A stretch of DNA of 64,000 nt from Haliotis rubra (lineage: Eukaryota): assembly GCF_003918875.1 (NCBI RefSeq), contig NW_025767379.1, positions 2,108,001 through 2,172,000 of the forward strand. Reading direction: 5' to 3'. Within the stretch, counting starts at the first letter, position 1; every line of letters starts with the position of its first letter. Below, piece after piece: positions 24,001 to 33,000 of the stretch. The position numbers were made by a program.

Positions 24001-27000
24001 ACGGATCCGCCGGTCATATTTTTTCAAGAATAAGAAAAATTAAAAAAATAATTTTCCCCGCTCAAAAAATAAAATCCTTATGTTTTTATTGGCCAAAAAT
24101 GTAAATTTCTCATACTTCTGTCATGATAAAACAGGCTTCTCGAGAGGTAATATGTCGGTTAATGTACACATGAGCAGAAATGTGAGTAGTACATAATCAC
24201 AGGCTGTACATGTGTGGACAGGTTTCATAAATATAATGTAAATGCAAATGTATAAGAATATTGGCATATATTATGAGCAGGGCATAATGTAAACAACCAA
24301 CAATAAAACTATCAAAGTACATGTATATAACAATGATAAAAGTTTCAAAATCTTGAAGCAATTGGTACAAATAATATCTGCAGACTGATATGGTGACAAA
24401 AGTCATCCAGGCCACAGGGCCTTGTAGTGCTAAAAACTGCCATCAAGGTATATACTGTCACTAACAGGGTTTTCATACCTTGGTGTGGCTTCAAACTAAA
24501 CTCACTCACTCACTCACTCACTTTATACCTTGATGTCAGTTTTTAGCACTACAAGCCCTGTGGTCCAGTCAATATTTCACTCTTGTAATCTGTTTCACAT
24601 ACAAATTTTACAGTTATTGACATCCACTGACCATGCTGATCTAGCATATATTGTCATTCAATACACTAAATGTCTACGCATTGTTGACATTCAATCCACA
24701 CATTAATCTAACCAATCAACATTGTTCTGGCCTCTGCTGAGTTCTAATCCTTGAAATGACGCAGCTTATTATCGATGCACCTGGGGAGCAAGGTCATGGT
24801 CACGCCATTGCTAGTCATCACAGGTGACGTCATATCTATTCGTCATCATCAAAACTAGGGAGTGACGGCATGGACCAAGACCTCGTACCTCCCCCGCCCC
24901 CCTTACACTTACCATACCTGCACATGATGATGATACCTACGAGGACAAGGACTATAATGACACCTAAAACAATCAACGCGATGTTTCCTGCGGTCAGACC
25001 TGAACCTGAAACAAACAATGGAAGAATAAATACACTGGGATTCCACACTGTGAGACAAACTTGAGAACATGTTCAAGTTTTGTGACTTATCACCATGTGT
25101 GTGCATGTATAACTACAGTTTGAACAATGTTTCTGTATGACTTGTGGAAAGCCTGATGGTTTTGTATGTTGGTGGTGAAACCAAACCAAGAAACAACCCC
25201 AGGCACAAGTGCTACATGGTCAGAATAGGCTGAAAGACACTTACTTGTCCAGGATCAGTATCAGTCAGGGTCGGGCAAGCGTCAGGATCAGTCAGGGTCG
25301 GGCAAGAGTCAGGTTCAGTCATGTTCAGGGCAAGAGTCAGGATCAGTCAGGGTCGAGGCAAGAGTCAGGATCAGTCAGGGTCGGGCAAGAGTCAGAATCA
25401 GTCAGGTTTAGGGCAAGAGTCAGGATCAGTCAGGTTCAGGGCAAGAGTCAGGATCAGTCAGGTTCAGGGCAAGAGTCAGGTTCAGTCAGGTTCAGGGCAA
25501 GAGTCAGGATCAGTCAGGTTCAAGCCAAGAGTCAGGATCAGTCAGGTTCAGGGCAAGAGTCAGGATCAGTCAGGGTCGAGCAAGAGTCAGGATCAGTCAG
25601 GTTCAGGGCAAGAGTCAGGATCAGTCAGGGTCAGGCAGGAGTCAGGATCAGTCAGGGTCGGGCAAGAGTCAGAATCAGTCAGGTTTAGGGCAAGAGTCAG
25701 GATCAGTCAGGTTCAGGGCAAGAGTCAGGATCAGTCAGGTTCAGGGCAAGAGTCAGGATCAGTCAGGGTCGAGCAAGAGTCAGGATCAGTCAGGGTCAGG
25801 GCAACAGTCAGGATCGGTCAGGGTCAGGATCAGTCAGGGTCTATATCAGTCAGGTTCAGCTCTGCATGTGCATTCCTATATAAGATAATGATCTTCCCAT
25901 CAAGTTGTGCATGCTCCTGGTGACTGTGAACTTACCACCTTCACTGAGGTCATGATTGTCCCATATCTTGAGGTGGAAGTCATACTTTTTAGTGTCCACT
26001 GAGCCTGTTCGGATAGCCTTGAAGGATATCTCCTCTCCATCAGTACAGAAATCTTTTGGAGATGCCTCAGAACATTTCACACTCTACAACAGATACACAT
26101 CCGACTCAGTCCCTTCCCTGGGCATTCATACCTATATCATCTGTGGACATGTGTACCAATATCATCTGTCCCTGGGACATACATATCTATATCATCTGTC
26201 CCTGGGACATACATATCTATATCATCTGTCCCTGGGACAAACACACCTATATCATCCGTCCCTGGGACATACATACCTATATCATCCGTCCCTGGGACAT
26301 ACATACCTATATCATCCGTCCCTGGGACATTCATACCTATATCATCTGTCCCTGGGACATTCATACCTATATCATCTGTCCCTGGGACATACATACCTAT
26401 ATCATCTGTCCCTGGGACATTCATATCTATATCATCTGTCCCTGGGACATATATACCTATATCAACTGTCCTTGGGACATTCATACCTATATCATCTGTC
26501 CCTGGGACATACATATCTATATCATCTGTCCCTGGGACATATATACCTATATCAACTGTCCCTGGGACATACATACCTATATCATCCGTCCCTGGGACAT
26601 TCATACCTATATCATCTGTCCCTGGGACATTCATACCTATATCATCTGTCCCTGGGACGTACATACCTATATCATCCGTCCCTGGGACATACATACCTAT
26701 ATCATCTGTCCCTGGGACATTCATACCTATATCATCTGTCCCTGGGGCATTCATACCTATATCATCTGTCCCTGGGACATTCATATCTATATCATCTGTC
26801 CCTGGGACATTCATATCTATATCATCCGTCCCTGGGACATTCATATCTATATCATCCGTCCCTGGGACATTCATACCTATATCATCTGTCCCTGGGACAT
26901 TCATACCTTTATCATCTGTCCCTGGGACATTCATACCTATATCATCTGTCCCTGGGACATTCATACCTATATCATCTGTCCCTGGGACATTCATACCTAT

Positions 27001-30000: not shown

Positions 30001-33000
30001 TGAGTATACATTCTATCCATACCTACAATCTGGCGCTTAGTCTGTAGTGACAATGGTTGCACAACTTGTGACACTGAGTATACATTCTATCCATACCTAC
30101 AATCTGGCGCTTCGTCTGTAGTGACAATGGTTGCACAACTTGTGACACTGAGTATACATTCTATCCATACCTACAATCTGGCGCTTCAGTCTGTATTGAC
30201 AATGGTTGCACAACTTGTGACACTGAGTATACATTCTATCCATACCTACAATCTGGCACTTAGTCTGTACTGACAATGGTTGCACAACTTGTGACACTGA
30301 GTATACATTCTATCCATACCTACAATCTGGCGCTTCGTCTGTAGTGACAATGGTTGCACAACTTGTGACACTGAGTATACATCCATACCTATCCATGGTT
30401 ACACTGAGTATACATTCATCCATACCTACAATCACGCACTTCGTCTGTACTGACAATGGTTGCACAATTTGTGACACTGAGTATACATTCTATCCATACC
30501 TACAATCTGGCGCTTAGTCTGTAGTGACAATGGTTGCACAACTTGTGACACTGAGTATACATTCTATCCATACCTACAATCTGACAATGGTTGCACAACT
30601 TGTGTAACTGAGCATACTTCTATCCATACCTACTGAGCATACATTCTATCCATGGTTGCACAATGTGACAATGGTTGCACAACTTTGGACACTGAGTATA
30701 CATTCTATCCATACCTACAATCTGGCACTTCGTCTGTACTGACAATGGTTGCACAACTTGTGACACTGAGTATACATTCTATCCATACCTACAATCTGGC
30801 GCTTCGTCTGTACTGACAATGGTTGCACAACTTGGTTGCACAACTTGTGACACTGAGTATACATTCTATCCATACCTACAATCTGGCAATGGTTCTGTAC
30901 ACTGACAATGGTTGCACAACTTTGTGACACTGAGTATACATTCTATCCATACCTACAATCTGGCTTGAGTATACATTCTATCCATACCTACAATCTGGCG
31001 CTTCGTCTGTAGTGACAATGGTTGCACAATTTGTGACACTGAGTATACATTCTATCCATACTTACCCTGTCTGCAGTGTAGTCTGTTGTGACAGGGACAT
31101 ACGTCAGAGAGGTATCGAAGGTGTAATACTTAAGACGCAGCGAACAACGGTGGAAGTGGACAATATGTTCGTTGATACAGACGACCTGAGAGCCTGATAT
31201 GAAAGCTTGGAAACATGGGAAGTAACCGGTCAGATTCTTGTCAGGCTTGCTGCGGTCAAGATACTCCACGTGGAACACGTCCTCATCGTTCAGGTGCACC
31301 TTGTAGCTGCAGGATTCCTTCGAGTCCATGTACACTAGGAGGAAACAAGGCATCCTGTGTAATACAGGGTATAATATCCCCATTCCAGGATATTAACTAC
31401 TCTGGGCTTATCCACTAACAAATAGGGTGAAACGGTACGCTGTTACCACGGTACAGTACCCATTGTGGTACAAGGCCTACGGTTTGGTCCGTTTCGGTTC
31501 ACTACATGAGAACTTACTTTCGGGAAAATAGTGGCCGTCTAGCAAAGAAATGCATAGATTTTGACAAAGTGATTTGATTTCTAGACATTTTAGGGACCGT
31601 TCATTATGATGATTTTAAGGGTTAGAGGTGGGGGTGTTTGTTTTCACCCATTTTGTTCTGGGGAGCTAGGGTGGGTCATCAATTTTGTACACACGCACTA
31701 CTAAGGGGGGGGGGTAAAAAAATTATGCTTAGAAATTATGGGAAGGGAAGGGGGGTTCATTGATTTTGTACATGACATGCAGGGGGTGTGTTCACTTATT
31801 TTGTACATAAATTTTTTCTCCATAAAAATCATCATCACCTCACCCCCTAGCTATAAATTATGAACGGTCCCTTAGAAAAGGTTTAAAAAGGTTACTAAAA
31901 TGATGGTACGAAAACTGAATATACTGAATTTTTAGATTGCATTTAGAAGATAAAGCTACTCTGTATTCAATTTTGCGGTCTTTTATCGTTGATTTAAGAA
32001 TGCTGAATGTAATTAAAAACCGAACAACAGGTTTGTGAAAAAGGCTCACACATTCTACGCCCTTTATTGTAACTTAGGCAGGAATCCAAGTTGTTTCATA
32101 TACTAAGGGCAACATGATACATGGTACATGATACATGATACAAGTAAGGAGTCACCAGAAACAGCTACTAACCACTACACAGACAGCAACCATCACATTT
32201 CTCTACTTCAAGGCCACAAATTAATAGTTAATGTCTTCCTACAGAAACAAGACACGTAACACACCAGTAGTTGTCTTTCCCTGAACGCTGCCCGACTGCA
32301 GAACCACTACACAGACAGCAAACATCCACAGATTCCCGCTACCAGCCATCTTGTACTGTTGTACAAGTACATCAACATGTGCCACTGTGTGTCAGACCTG
32401 AAACTAAAGCATGAAACTCGTGGACATCGATAAGTAAAATCGTAACACAAGATACTTGCCTCCCAGATGATCCTATCCTGCAAATACTACTCTCAGCCCC
32501 TGAGCTTTGCTACTTAGAATTCTGTTCATCTTGATCAGTGAGTGAATACGGTTTAGTAATGCCCTAGCAAAGTTCCATCAACAGTTGTGGTTAAAGCGTT
32601 CGCTCGTCACGCTGAAGACCTGGGTTCGATCCCTACATAGGTAAAATGTGTAAATAAATAATTAAATAAATAAATTCAACAAAGGTAGAAAAGGCACCAG
32701 TTAAATACATGGATGTGGATAGGGGTTGGGGGTGTATACATTATGTTTAGATGATATGTTGAAGTGTTTATGAGTTCTTCTCTGGGAACGAAACGTGCAT
32801 GTTAGATGGAATGATGTGGCTGTTTATTTCCACGTGAAAACATGTTCAGCTGGGGGATAATAACAAACCAACACACATTGTTTACATTTAATACGGTATC
32901 TGTCCTGCCTCCTCTGCATTCCCGTCATAGTTGCACCCGATCTGCATCAATGTTGATTTCGAGATACTGACACTTGACACAAAAAGATAATGACGTTTAG

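What the first reader, a model, noticed from the sequence alone, without database searches (positions are those of the whole stretch)
24836..32397. One small receptor gene carries four unrelated minisatellites, each containing a splice signal on the sense strand
Seen: intron 2 has the donor-derived 74-mer and the acceptor-derived 31-mer. Intron 4 has a 30-mer reading ATAG|GTATGT or ATAG|GTATGA in most units. Intron 5 has a 27/28-mer with two CCTGAC branch-point consensus motifs per unit. Together with the donor repeats in MIGA intron 8, this suggests a recurrent lineage-level process in which tandem repeats nucleate at splice junctions, or are kept as splice decoys, generating isoform variation in a cell-surface protein. 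The mechanism is inference.
[Added by the scan's program, not by the reader: the finding's places include an assembly gap (unread letters, written N; its length is only estimated) at 27947 to 28160. Whether the letters on both sides are continuous or in frame is not known: test that first.]
Basis: inference. Interest (0 to 1): 0.65.

Follow-up and report, generated by a model that had tools for sequence, protein, structure and literature searches.

The report
Abalone intron minisatellites copying splice junctions
A small abalone membrane-protein gene carries four real tandem-repeat arrays in its introns; two are multiplied copies of the gene's own exon-intron junctions, a kind of repeat already known from human genes, and they most likely stay silent rather than create new protein forms.

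Summary
The window is abalone (Haliotis) DNA. On the minus strand lies a six-exon, 353-codon gene for a signal-peptide, two-CUB-like-domain, single-pass membrane protein. Three of its five introns hold four unrelated minisatellites of 28, 30, 31 and 74 nt, making 4351 of 7514 bases. The N gap lies in intron 3, and the flanking exons abut in frame.

The 74-mer is a multiplied copy of the last ~28 nt of exon 2 plus the first ~46 nt of intron 2. The 31-mer is a multiplied copy of the last 15 nt of intron 2 plus the first 16 nt of exon 3, and its last unit holds the real acceptor. MIGA intron 8 also starts with reiterated donors. These three carry splice signals by descent.

The 30-mer and 28-mer show no homology to their own junctions, and their motifs are near chance level. 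In the 30-mer, the donor-like positions are the most variable columns.

Every decoy tested leads to a premature stop, so protein isoform variety is not supported.

With arrays collapsed, intron 2 was about 139 nt. Junction-spanning seeds are then expected often (3 seen, 0.94-1.99 expected).

The closest known case is the human F7/CBS/IFI6-type boundary minisatellite. This is a new member of a known kind.

The parts
32265..32349 (-). Exon 1 (coding part, ATG at 32349-32347; signal peptide), donor CTG|GTGTGT
   Evidence: tblastn with Haliotis asinina orthologue P0003 residues 1-28; sequence
31066..31334 (-). Exon 2; ends in phase 0 at the strong donor AGG|GTAAGT (GT at 31065-31064)
   Evidence: P0003 residues 29-118, 90% identity; donor score 8/9
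28748..31093 (-). Donor-junction minisatellite (74-mer). First unit = last ~28 nt of exon 2 plus the start of intron 2. Holds 32 decoy donors (31 TAG|GTATGG, 1 AGG|GTAAGT) downstream of the authentic one.
   Evidence: TRF rows 28748-30999; junction-to-unit alignment score 113, 0/1000 shuffles, and exon-only part 4/1000; unit list; decoy count
29565..29615 (-). Exact 51-nt second copy of the exon 2 end (21 nt) plus the strong donor and 30 intron nt, 1471 nt inside the array
   Evidence: Longest exact repeat of the junction region
28511..28697 (-). Acceptor-junction minisatellite (31-mer x 6.0). Unit = last 15 nt of intron 2 plus first 16 nt of exon 3. The last unit carries the real acceptor ttctag|atc (exon 3 starts at 28526); 5 identical decoy acceptors lie upstream.
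   Evidence: TRF; 6 TTCTAG on the sense strand; orthologues read R|ILDCN; 16-nt identity
28376..28526 (-). Exon 3 (phase 0 start, phase 1 end; donor TTG|GTACAG)
   Evidence: P0003 residues 119-168
27947..28160 (.). Assembly gap (N) inside intron 3; not filled or looked up
   Evidence: N run; flanking exons abut at orthologue residues 168/169 in matching phase
27567..27805 (-). Exon 4
   Evidence: P0003 residues 169-248, 94% identity
26115..27452 (-). 30-mer minisatellite in intron 4 (44.8 copies). It starts 114 nt after the donor and ends 31 nt before the acceptor. Donor-like TAG|GTATG[T/A] in 23 of 44 units. No junction homology.
25936..26083 (-). Exon 5
   Evidence: P0003 residues 249-297
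25255..25828 (-). 27/28-mer minisatellite in intron 5 (20.8 copies), built of three CCTGA[AC] sub-repeats. 41 CCTGAC on the sense strand. It lies 107 nt from the donor and 249 nt from the acceptor. No junction homology.
24836..25005 (-). Exon 6 (transmembrane helix, short tail, stop codon at 24838-24836)
   Evidence: P0003 residues 298-353; weak transmembrane-type Pfam hits only
9895..10135 (+). MIGA (mitoguardin) intron 8 start: authentic donor GGG|GTAAGT followed by about 10 reiterated GAGGG|GT(A/G)AGTT units (periods 22 and 19)
   Evidence: TRF; sequence; exon map with H. cracherodii mitoguardin-like P0005; 12-nt junction match 8/1000
10931..11070 (+). 34-mer x 4.2 in MIGA intron 9, ending 10 nt before the acceptor AG of exon 10 (exon starts at 11081). 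It abuts the junction but is not derived from it.
   Evidence: 411/1000 shuffles

Best explanation
These are ordinary intronic minisatellites (VNTR-type arrays) in a minisatellite-rich stretch of an abalone genome. They sit in a gene whose introns were originally very short.

Origin of the two junction arrays. Two arrays were seeded by small tandem duplications that happened to span a splice junction of intron 2. That intron is about 139 nt once the arrays are collapsed. One 74-nt segment covered the end of exon 2 and the donor. One 31-nt segment covered the acceptor and the start of exon 3. Slippage or unequal exchange then multiplied each segment inside the intron. The array in MIGA intron 8 arose the same way.

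Why they carry splice signals. These arrays carry splice signals on the sense strand simply by descent. They are tolerated because the spliceosome still uses the outermost sites: the first donor and the exon-proximal acceptor. Any use of an inner copy gives a premature stop.

The other two arrays. The 30-mer and 28-mer are independent in-situ expansions. Their splice-like motifs are incidental.

Shown versus inferred. Shown: anatomy, descent from the junctions, reading-frame consequences and the chance levels. Inferred: the slippage mechanism, the silence of the decoys and neutrality.
For: Gene model. The model is collinear with the 353-aa H. asinina protein and the 358-aa H. rufescens protein. 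The six coding parts sum to 1062 nt, which is 353 codons plus the stop.

Descent from junctions. The 74-mer and 31-mer align to their junctions (score 113 at 0/1000; 16 of 16 nt identical). The exon parts encode residues conserved in both orthologues (TTDYTADR and ILDCN), so the coding sequence came first.

Decoy strength. 31 of the 32 decoy donors are the weaker TAG|GTATGG (6/9), against the authentic AGG|GTAAGT (8/9).

Reading frame. Every decoy is non-productive.

The 30-mer and 28-mer. They show no junction homology. Variation in the 30-mer is concentrated in the donor-like columns. The null frequencies for their motifs are 7.4% and 3.5%.

Null models. Short ancestral introns make junction-spanning seeds expected (0.94-1.99 expected, 3 seen).

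Regional setting. Tandem repeats make up 15.9% of the window. A 4-kb, 130-copy 31-mer lies 3.6 kb upstream of the gene, in a stretch where ORFs of 65 aa or more gave no Pfam family. The richness in arrays is therefore regional and not tied to splicing.

Local origin. No unit has a dispersed copy elsewhere in the window.

Precedent. Human F7, IFI 6-16, CBS, LMNB2 and PDGF have minisatellites whose first monomer spans the exon-intron boundary, with the upstream donor used (PMC1557585, abstract and Introduction read). A polymorphic 27-bp intronic minisatellite, shown with 62 copies, is described in an abalone gene (PMC6905558, passages).
Against: Clustering. Four of the seven arrays of >=150 nt in the window fall within this one gene. 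The nominal P is 0.005, or 0.0004 with arrays collapsed, but the test is post hoc.

Junction excess. Under the gene-span null, junction-spanning arrays are borderline in excess (P=0.053). Two further arrays end 10 and 31 nt from an acceptor.

Sense strand. All four arrays do carry some splice-like motif on the sense strand. The 30-mer's TAG|GTATGT scores 7/9, equal to the median of the 16 authentic donors, and one authentic donor is GAA|GTATGT. Each 30-mer unit also has an acceptor-like gtcccag|g 15 nt upstream of the donor-like site (read).

Inner strong donor. An exact 51-nt copy of the junction with the strong donor sits inside the 74-mer array.

Missing data. No RNA, population or cross-species DNA data could be consulted, so silence and neutrality are inferred.
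Confidence: 0.7

Rival explanations
1. One reading: the arrays are kept as splice decoys and generate isoform variation in the surface protein.
For: Sense-strand splice-like motifs occur in all four arrays. Decoy strengths lie within the range of authentic donors. There are 5 decoy acceptors identical to the real one.
Against: All 32 decoy donors lie behind an in-frame TAG, and all 5 decoy acceptors give a stop after 14 codons. Read-through after exons 4 and 5 stops before reaching the arrays. Donor-like columns are the most variable in the 30-mer. Both orthologue proteins are collinear with the six exons and carry no repeat-derived insert. The names given for them carry no isoform label, which is weak evidence.
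Confidence: 0.04
2. A lineage-level mutational bias makes tandem duplications start at splice junctions in abalone more often than elsewhere, for example through breakage or slippage linked to transcription or splicing.
For: 3 of 10 intronic arrays span a junction against 0.94 expected (P=0.053). Two more end 10 and 31 nt from acceptors. The cases occur in two unrelated neighbouring genes.
Against: Under the own-intron null the expectation is 1.99 and P=0.30. The sample is 16 introns. The largest array (35999-40010) has no gene evidence around it. The comparison of sense against antisense best donor match in the 10 intronic units is 7 to 2 with 1 tie (from the table; sign test worked out by hand, two-sided about 0.18), and three of the seven are sense by descent.
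Confidence: 0.13
3. The boundary arrays act as a length-dependent dial on expression. Occasional use of inner sites yields stop-containing transcripts that are degraded, so copy number tunes the protein level.
For: Every decoy gives a premature stop. There are six identical acceptors, and an inner full-strength donor with 21 exon bases. In human IFI 6-16 and CBS the two nearest pseudo-donors are used (PMC1557585 Introduction).
Against: There is no RNA evidence. 31 of 32 decoy donors are weakened, which points to avoidance of use. In F7 even identical pseudo-sites stay silent.
Confidence: 0.1
4. The 30-mer and 28-mer arrays were brought in by a mobile element, or the arrays are assembly artefacts.
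For: Intron 1 holds a MITE-like element with 16-nt inverted ends, so mobile DNA does enter this gene. An assembly gap lies in intron 3.
Against: No inverted ends were seen on reading the flanks of the two arrays, and no dispersed copies of any unit occur in the window. The arrays show structured variant units and degenerate edge units, as real in-situ minisatellites do.
Confidence: 0.03

Closest known systems
Boundary minisatellites of human genes (F7 IVS7 37-bp VNTR; also IFI 6-16, CBS IVS13, LMNB2, PDGF), Borensztajn et al. 2006, PMC1557585 (abstract and Introduction read)
   Same: The first monomer spans the exon-intron boundary, so the donor is reiterated in the intron. Units are tens of bases long and copies number 5 to 25 or more. 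The 74-mer array and the MIGA intron 8 array have exactly this anatomy.
   Different: Here 31 of 32 pseudo-donors differ from the authentic one (GTATGG against GTAAGT), whereas the F7 pseudo-sites are identical to it. The exon share is about 28 nt, against 4 nt in F7. The same short intron also has the mirror case at its acceptor. One search (a single unrelated hit) found no description of such a case, which does not show it is unpublished. Site usage and copy-number polymorphism are untested here.
Internal tandem repeats at exon-intron boundaries in human segmental-duplication genes, De Grassi and Ciccarelli 2009, PMC2812944 (passages read)
   Same: Tandem repeats that straddle exon-intron boundaries and reshape introns through extra splice sites.
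   Different: Those cases change gene structure and have transcript support for alternative forms. Here no productive alternative form is possible by simple site choice.
Intron gain or extension by tandem genomic duplication containing AGGT (PMC3265369, PMC4974935; only the search listing and the start of each abstract seen)
   Same: A tandem duplication supplies a second copy of a splice signal, and the duplicated stretch is spliced out.
   Different: No new intron is created here. An existing intron of about 139 nt grew to 2539 nt.
Polymorphic intronic minisatellite of abalone TSSK1-like intron 3 (27-bp unit, shown with 62 copies), PMC6905558 (passages read; its S2 Fig not seen, supplements closed)
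   Same: Same genus, same unit size class (27-31 nt), intronic, tens of copies. It shows that such arrays are ordinary in Haliotis genes.
   Different: The passages read do not report a relation to a splice junction.
Recursive splice sites / ratchet points (recalled; no paper read)
   Same: The 30-mer and 74-mer units contain a juxtaposed AG|GT.
   Different: No pyrimidine tract precedes the AG (gacagatgatatag|gt and gccagattgtag|gt), so the defining acceptor half is missing.

Membership tests
Boundary minisatellite, donor type (F7 IVS7 kind) | Head-to-tail array of a 10-100 nt unit inside an intron | tested here: met
   74-mer, 33 donor cores including the authentic one, 13 units of exactly 74 nt. 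MIGA intron 8: periods 22 and 19, about 10 units.
Boundary minisatellite, donor type (F7 IVS7 kind) | First monomer spans the exon-intron boundary (exon bases are part of the unit) | tested here: met
   74-mer: exon-only alignment TGTCAC.ACAGACTA reached by 4/1000 shuffles; whole junction score 113 at 0/1000. MIGA: only about 5 exon bases (GAGGG) are shared, 12-nt match at 8/1000, so weaker. For the 30-mer and 28-mer this feature was tested and not met (207-814/1000).
Boundary minisatellite, donor type (F7 IVS7 kind) | Authentic donor sequence reiterated downstream as pseudo-sites | tested here: met
   32 pseudo-donors. Only 1 is identical to the authentic AGG|GTAAGT; 31 are TAG|GTATGG.
Boundary minisatellite, donor type (F7 IVS7 kind) | Only (or mainly) the most upstream donor is used | not testable with these tools
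   No transcript data. The orthologue proteins fit use of the first donor.
Boundary minisatellite, donor type (F7 IVS7 kind) | Copy number varies among individuals (VNTR) | not testable with these tools
   Only one assembly is at hand.
Boundary minisatellite, acceptor type (mirror case) | Last monomer spans the intron-exon boundary and carries the real acceptor | tested here: met
   Exon 3 must start at 28526 (ILDCN in both orthologues, phase 0). This lies in the last 31-mer unit. 16 of 16 exon nt are identical to the unit.
Recursive splice site array | Pyrimidine tract plus AG directly joined to a GTAAGT-like donor | tested here: not met
   The acceptor-like test (>=8 of 10 pyrimidines, YAG) is 0 for all unit consensuses on both strands.
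CUB-domain single-pass membrane protein (for the host gene) | Signal peptide, CUB-fold ectodomain(s), one transmembrane helix | tested here: inconclusive
   Tested on the database orthologue P0003, not on a joined model of the window. AF2 mean pLDDT 68.8, two beta domains, helices 3-22 and 303-328. Foldseek PDB top hits are tandem-CUB proteins (PCPE-1 E=2.9e-11, neuropilin, MASP, Neto2) but with TM-scores of 0.13-0.42. Pfam CUB is matched by 1 of 8 aligned relatives (3.2e-8) and not by P0003 itself. The window's exons give no Pfam domain one by one.

The most novel reading that the evidence does not exclude
Abalone genomes may carry a true excess of minisatellites born at exon-intron junctions, at donors and at acceptors. 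Copy-number variation of reiterated splice sites would then modulate unproductive splicing, and so expression, of many genes. This window would be catching three such arrays within 16 introns.
Probability: 0.12. Interest if true: 0.6.

Novelty: new member of a known kind. Interest (0 to 1): 0.3.

Why it matters
The locus is a clean natural example, outside vertebrates, of minisatellites that reiterate a donor (32 pseudo-sites) and an acceptor (5 pseudo-sites) at the two ends of one formerly tiny intron. It could serve as a test bed for how a spliceosome picks the outermost site among near-identical copies. The acceptor side is of particular interest, because one search found no described counterpart. 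It also warns gene finders: the true acceptor of exon 3 lies inside a repeat that masking would hide. It does not support a new mechanism of isoform generation.

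Tried and rejected
1. Pfam on the six exon translations one by one gave no domain.

2. Unit-against-unit comparison of 12 array consensuses (66 pairs). Among the receptor arrays and the large 35999-40010 array there is only a weak shared TAGGTAT core (z of 2.8 to 3.4), not significant over 66 pairs.

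3. I suspected by eye that the 30-mer derives from the exon 4 donor (ATAAAG|GTAATG). The test rejected this (207/1000).

4. The 30-mer array is an open frame of 438 codons on the sense strand (period of 10 codons). All three frames of the other strand are open too. The frame does not connect to exon 4, whose read-through stops after 33 codons. The orthologues have no such peptide. I rejected it as coding.

5. Rfam on 23000-41000 found nothing. ARAGORN on the whole window found no tRNA.

6. A search for dispersed copies of the units in the window found none.

7. Not possible or left out:
Orthologous loci, genome-wide enrichment and array age therefore stayed unchecked.
- Paper supplements were closed, so S2 Fig of PMC6905558 was not seen.
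- The spliced model was searched exon by exon only, and the joined step was left out. Whole-protein work used the database orthologue P0003.
- The window is not human-like (abalone).

Full report
What the window is. The exon 2 translation finds 'uncharacterized protein [Haliotis asinina]' (P0003, 353 aa, 91% identity) and H. rufescens LOC124120237 (P0004, 358 aa, 73%). A neighbouring exon is 100% identical to mitoguardin-like of H. cracherodii (P0005). The window is therefore abalone DNA, not human.

Gene model. tblastn of P0003 against the window gives six collinear pieces on the minus strand. Together with the splice signals read, the coding exons are 32349-32265, 31334-31066, 28526-28376, 27805-27567, 26083-25936 and 25005-24836. 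They sum to 1062 nt, that is 353 codons plus the stop, the same length as P0003. The model was searched exon by exon. The joined step was left out, and whole-protein work used the database orthologue.

The protein. Only 8 proteins of 1.84 billion representatives match P0003 at E<=0.001. An AlphaFold model (mean pLDDT 68.8) shows a signal helix, two beta-sandwich domains and a transmembrane helix at 303-328. Foldseek against the PDB lists tandem-CUB proteins first (PCPE-1, neuropilin, MASP, Neto2), with low TM-scores. One of the 8 aligned relatives matches Pfam CUB at 3.2e-8. 'Small surface receptor' is plausible but is an inference.

The gap. The N run 27947-28160 lies in intron 3. Exon 3 ends at orthologue residue 168 and exon 4 begins at 169. 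Both are in phase 1 and the split codon gives V, as in the orthologue. No coding exon is missing relative to the orthologue. The gap's content is unknown and was not looked up.

The arrays are real. TRF finds 28-mer x 20.8 (25255-25828, intron 5), 30-mer x 44.8 (26115-27452, intron 4), 31-mer x 6.0 (28511-28697) and 74-mer blocks (28748-30999), the last two in intron 2. Together they make 4351 of the gene's 7514 bases.
- 30-mer: 32 AGGT and 24 ATAGGTATG[TA] on the sense strand, none on the other strand.
- 28-mer: 41 CCTGAC on the sense strand, none on the other.
- 74-mer: 31 GGTATG on the sense strand.
- 31-mer: 6 TTCTAG on the sense strand.

In register, 23 of 44 full 30-mer units read ATAG|GTATGT or ATAG|GTATGA. 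The units are mutually unrelated apart from a short TAGGTATG-like core.

Two arrays are copies of the junctions. Both orthologues read ...TTDY(T/S)A(D/Q)R|ILDC.... Exon 2 therefore ends in phase 0 at AGG|GTAAGT (31066|31065), and exon 3 must begin at 28526 behind ttctag. This acceptor lies inside the last 31-mer unit. The unit is the last 15 intron bases plus the first 16 exon bases, so five identical acceptors stand upstream of the real one.

The 74-mer unit aligns to the junction itself, meaning the last ~22-28 nt of exon 2 plus the first 66 nt of the intron. The score is 113, reached by 0 of 1000 shuffles. The exon part alone is reached by 4 of 1000. Listing the units shows 33 donor cores including the real one, and 13 units of exactly 74 nt. 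An exact 51-nt copy of the junction (21 exon nt plus the strong donor) lies 1471 nt inside the array. Because the exon parts encode residues conserved in both orthologues, the coding sequence came first and the arrays are its copies.

MIGA. Mapping with P0005 puts exon 8 at 9796-9894 with donor GGG|GTAAGT. About ten GAGGG|GT(A/G)AGTT units follow directly (12-nt junction match at 8/1000).

The other two arrays are not junction copies. The 30-mer and 28-mer show no homology to either end of their introns; shuffles reach the score in 207, 367, 429 and 814 of 1000. In the 30-mer, the nine donor-like columns hold 43 of the 70 variant cells. The +1 G is A in 12 of 44 units and +6 is split 24 T / 18 A / 2 C. 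That is not what a maintained decoy would show.

The 28-mer is built of three CCTGA[AC] sub-repeats, so its two CCTGAC are not independent. CTGAC occurs in only 1 of the 16 authentic acceptor regions of this window. The array ends 249 nt from the acceptor. Sampling real non-repeat sequence of the window as 30-nt units, a >=7/9 donor match on a chosen strand occurs in 7.4%, CTGAC in 3.5%, and any of three signal types in about 15%.

Points against my reading. TAG|GTATGT scores 7/9, the median of the 16 authentic donors (range 4-9), and GAA|GTATGT is a real donor of MIGA intron 6.

What the decoys could do. Read-through from exon 2 meets TAG at 30990-30988, directly before the first decoy GT at 30987, so all 32 decoy donors lie behind a stop. 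Each of the 5 upstream decoy acceptors gives a stop after 14 codons. Read-through after exons 4 and 5 stops after 33 and 26 codons, before the arrays. Simple alternative site choice therefore cannot yield new full-length proteins. At most it yields truncated or degraded products. In addition, 31 of the 32 decoy donors are the weaker GTATGG form (6/9, against 8/9 for the authentic site).

Is junction placement more than chance? With arrays collapsed to one unit, intron 2 is about 139 nt, intron 4 about 175 nt and intron 5 about 384 nt. I tried two nulls:
- Seeds fall at random along the collapsed gene and wholly exonic ones are lost. Then 0.94 of the 10 intronic arrays should span a junction, 3 do, and P(>=3)=0.053.
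- Each seed is confined to its own intron. Then the expectation is 1.99 and P=0.30.

The best donor match is higher on the sense strand in 7 intronic units, lower in 2 and tied in 1 (table). My hand sign test gives about 0.18 two-sided, and three of the seven are sense by descent.

The arrays do cluster. Four of the seven arrays of >=150 nt lie in this gene (nominal P=0.005, post hoc). The largest array of the window (31-mer x 130, 35999-40010) lies 3.6 kb upstream, in a stretch without any Pfam-supported ORF. Tandem repeats make 15.9% of the window. The richness therefore looks regional rather than tied to splicing. No unit has a dispersed copy in the window.

Comparison with what is known. 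Borensztajn et al. 2006 (PMC1557585; abstract and Introduction read) describe the human F7 IVS7 37-bp minisatellite, whose first monomer spans the exon-intron boundary. They list IFI 6-16, CBS, LMNB2 and PDGF as further cases. The most upstream donor is used, and sometimes the next two. De Grassi and Ciccarelli 2009 (PMC2812944, passages) report tandem repeats at exon-intron boundaries that reshape introns. An abalone gene with a polymorphic 27-bp intronic minisatellite, shown with 62 copies, is in print (PMC6905558, passages). Intron gain by tandem duplication is a related idea (PMC3265369, PMC4974935; listing and start of abstract only). One search for an acceptor-side counterpart found a single unrelated paper. 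That is not proof of absence.

Verdict. It is not supported where it matters most, namely decoys kept for isoform variety. The best explanation is neutral or nearly neutral expansion of small tandem duplications in very short introns, tolerated because the outermost splice sites still work. This is a new member of a known kind. The features of modest interest are the mirror-image acceptor array and the fact that both ends of one intron are affected.

Noticed in passing
window 35999-40010: A very large minisatellite (31-mer, about 130 copies, 4 kb) lies 3.6 kb upstream of the receptor gene's start codon. It has 109 AGGT on the plus strand (TTTAG|GTATAAGG) and a strong GC and AT skew. No Pfam-supported ORF was found around it. 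Its unit shares a weak TAGGTAT core with the 30-mer and the 74-mer (z about 3.4).
   Followed up: partly
window 5029-5050 versus 26115-27452: The 30-mer unit (gene sense strand) shares an exact 14-nt string, ATGATATAGGTATG, with the acceptor junction of MIGA exon 3 (tgatatag|GTATGG). The alignment score is 28, reached by 0 of 2000 random windows, but this is not significant after about 288 comparisons. Probably coincidence.
   Followed up: partly
window 32170-32194 and 32302-32326: A 25-nt piece of exon 1 coding sequence (signal peptide region) is repeated at 96% identity 132 nt downstream, in intron 1. This is another small local duplication that carries exon sequence into an intron.
   Followed up: partly
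window 31592-31872: A MITE-like element in intron 1: 16-nt inverted ends (94% complementary) about 280 nt apart, with three internal copies of a 24-nt ..TTTTGTACA motif.
   Followed up: no
window 10931-11070: A 34-mer x 4.2 array in MIGA intron 9 ends only 10 nt before the acceptor AG of the 54-nt exon 10 (11081-11134). The branch point and pyrimidine tract of that acceptor must therefore lie in or at the edge of the array. There is no homology to the exon.
   Followed up: partly
window 49908-50273 (minus strand): An ORF with weak matches, below the curated cut-offs, to CYYR1 / WBP-1 / melan-A type small membrane proteins. It overlaps a 15-mer x 2.7 repeat at 49975-50014. Probably the last exon of a third gene.
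   Followed up: no
window 32560-32640 (minus strand): A tRNA-like stretch (ggatcgaacccag...) just upstream of the receptor gene, reminiscent of a tRNA-derived SINE. ARAGORN finds no tRNA gene and Rfam nothing at gathering score.
   Followed up: partly
window 27860-27946 and 28161-28175: The sequence bordering the intron 3 assembly gap is CT-rich: a (CT)n run near 27870 and ctcctctct at the other edge. The gap may sit in simple sequence. It was not filled or looked up.
   Followed up: no
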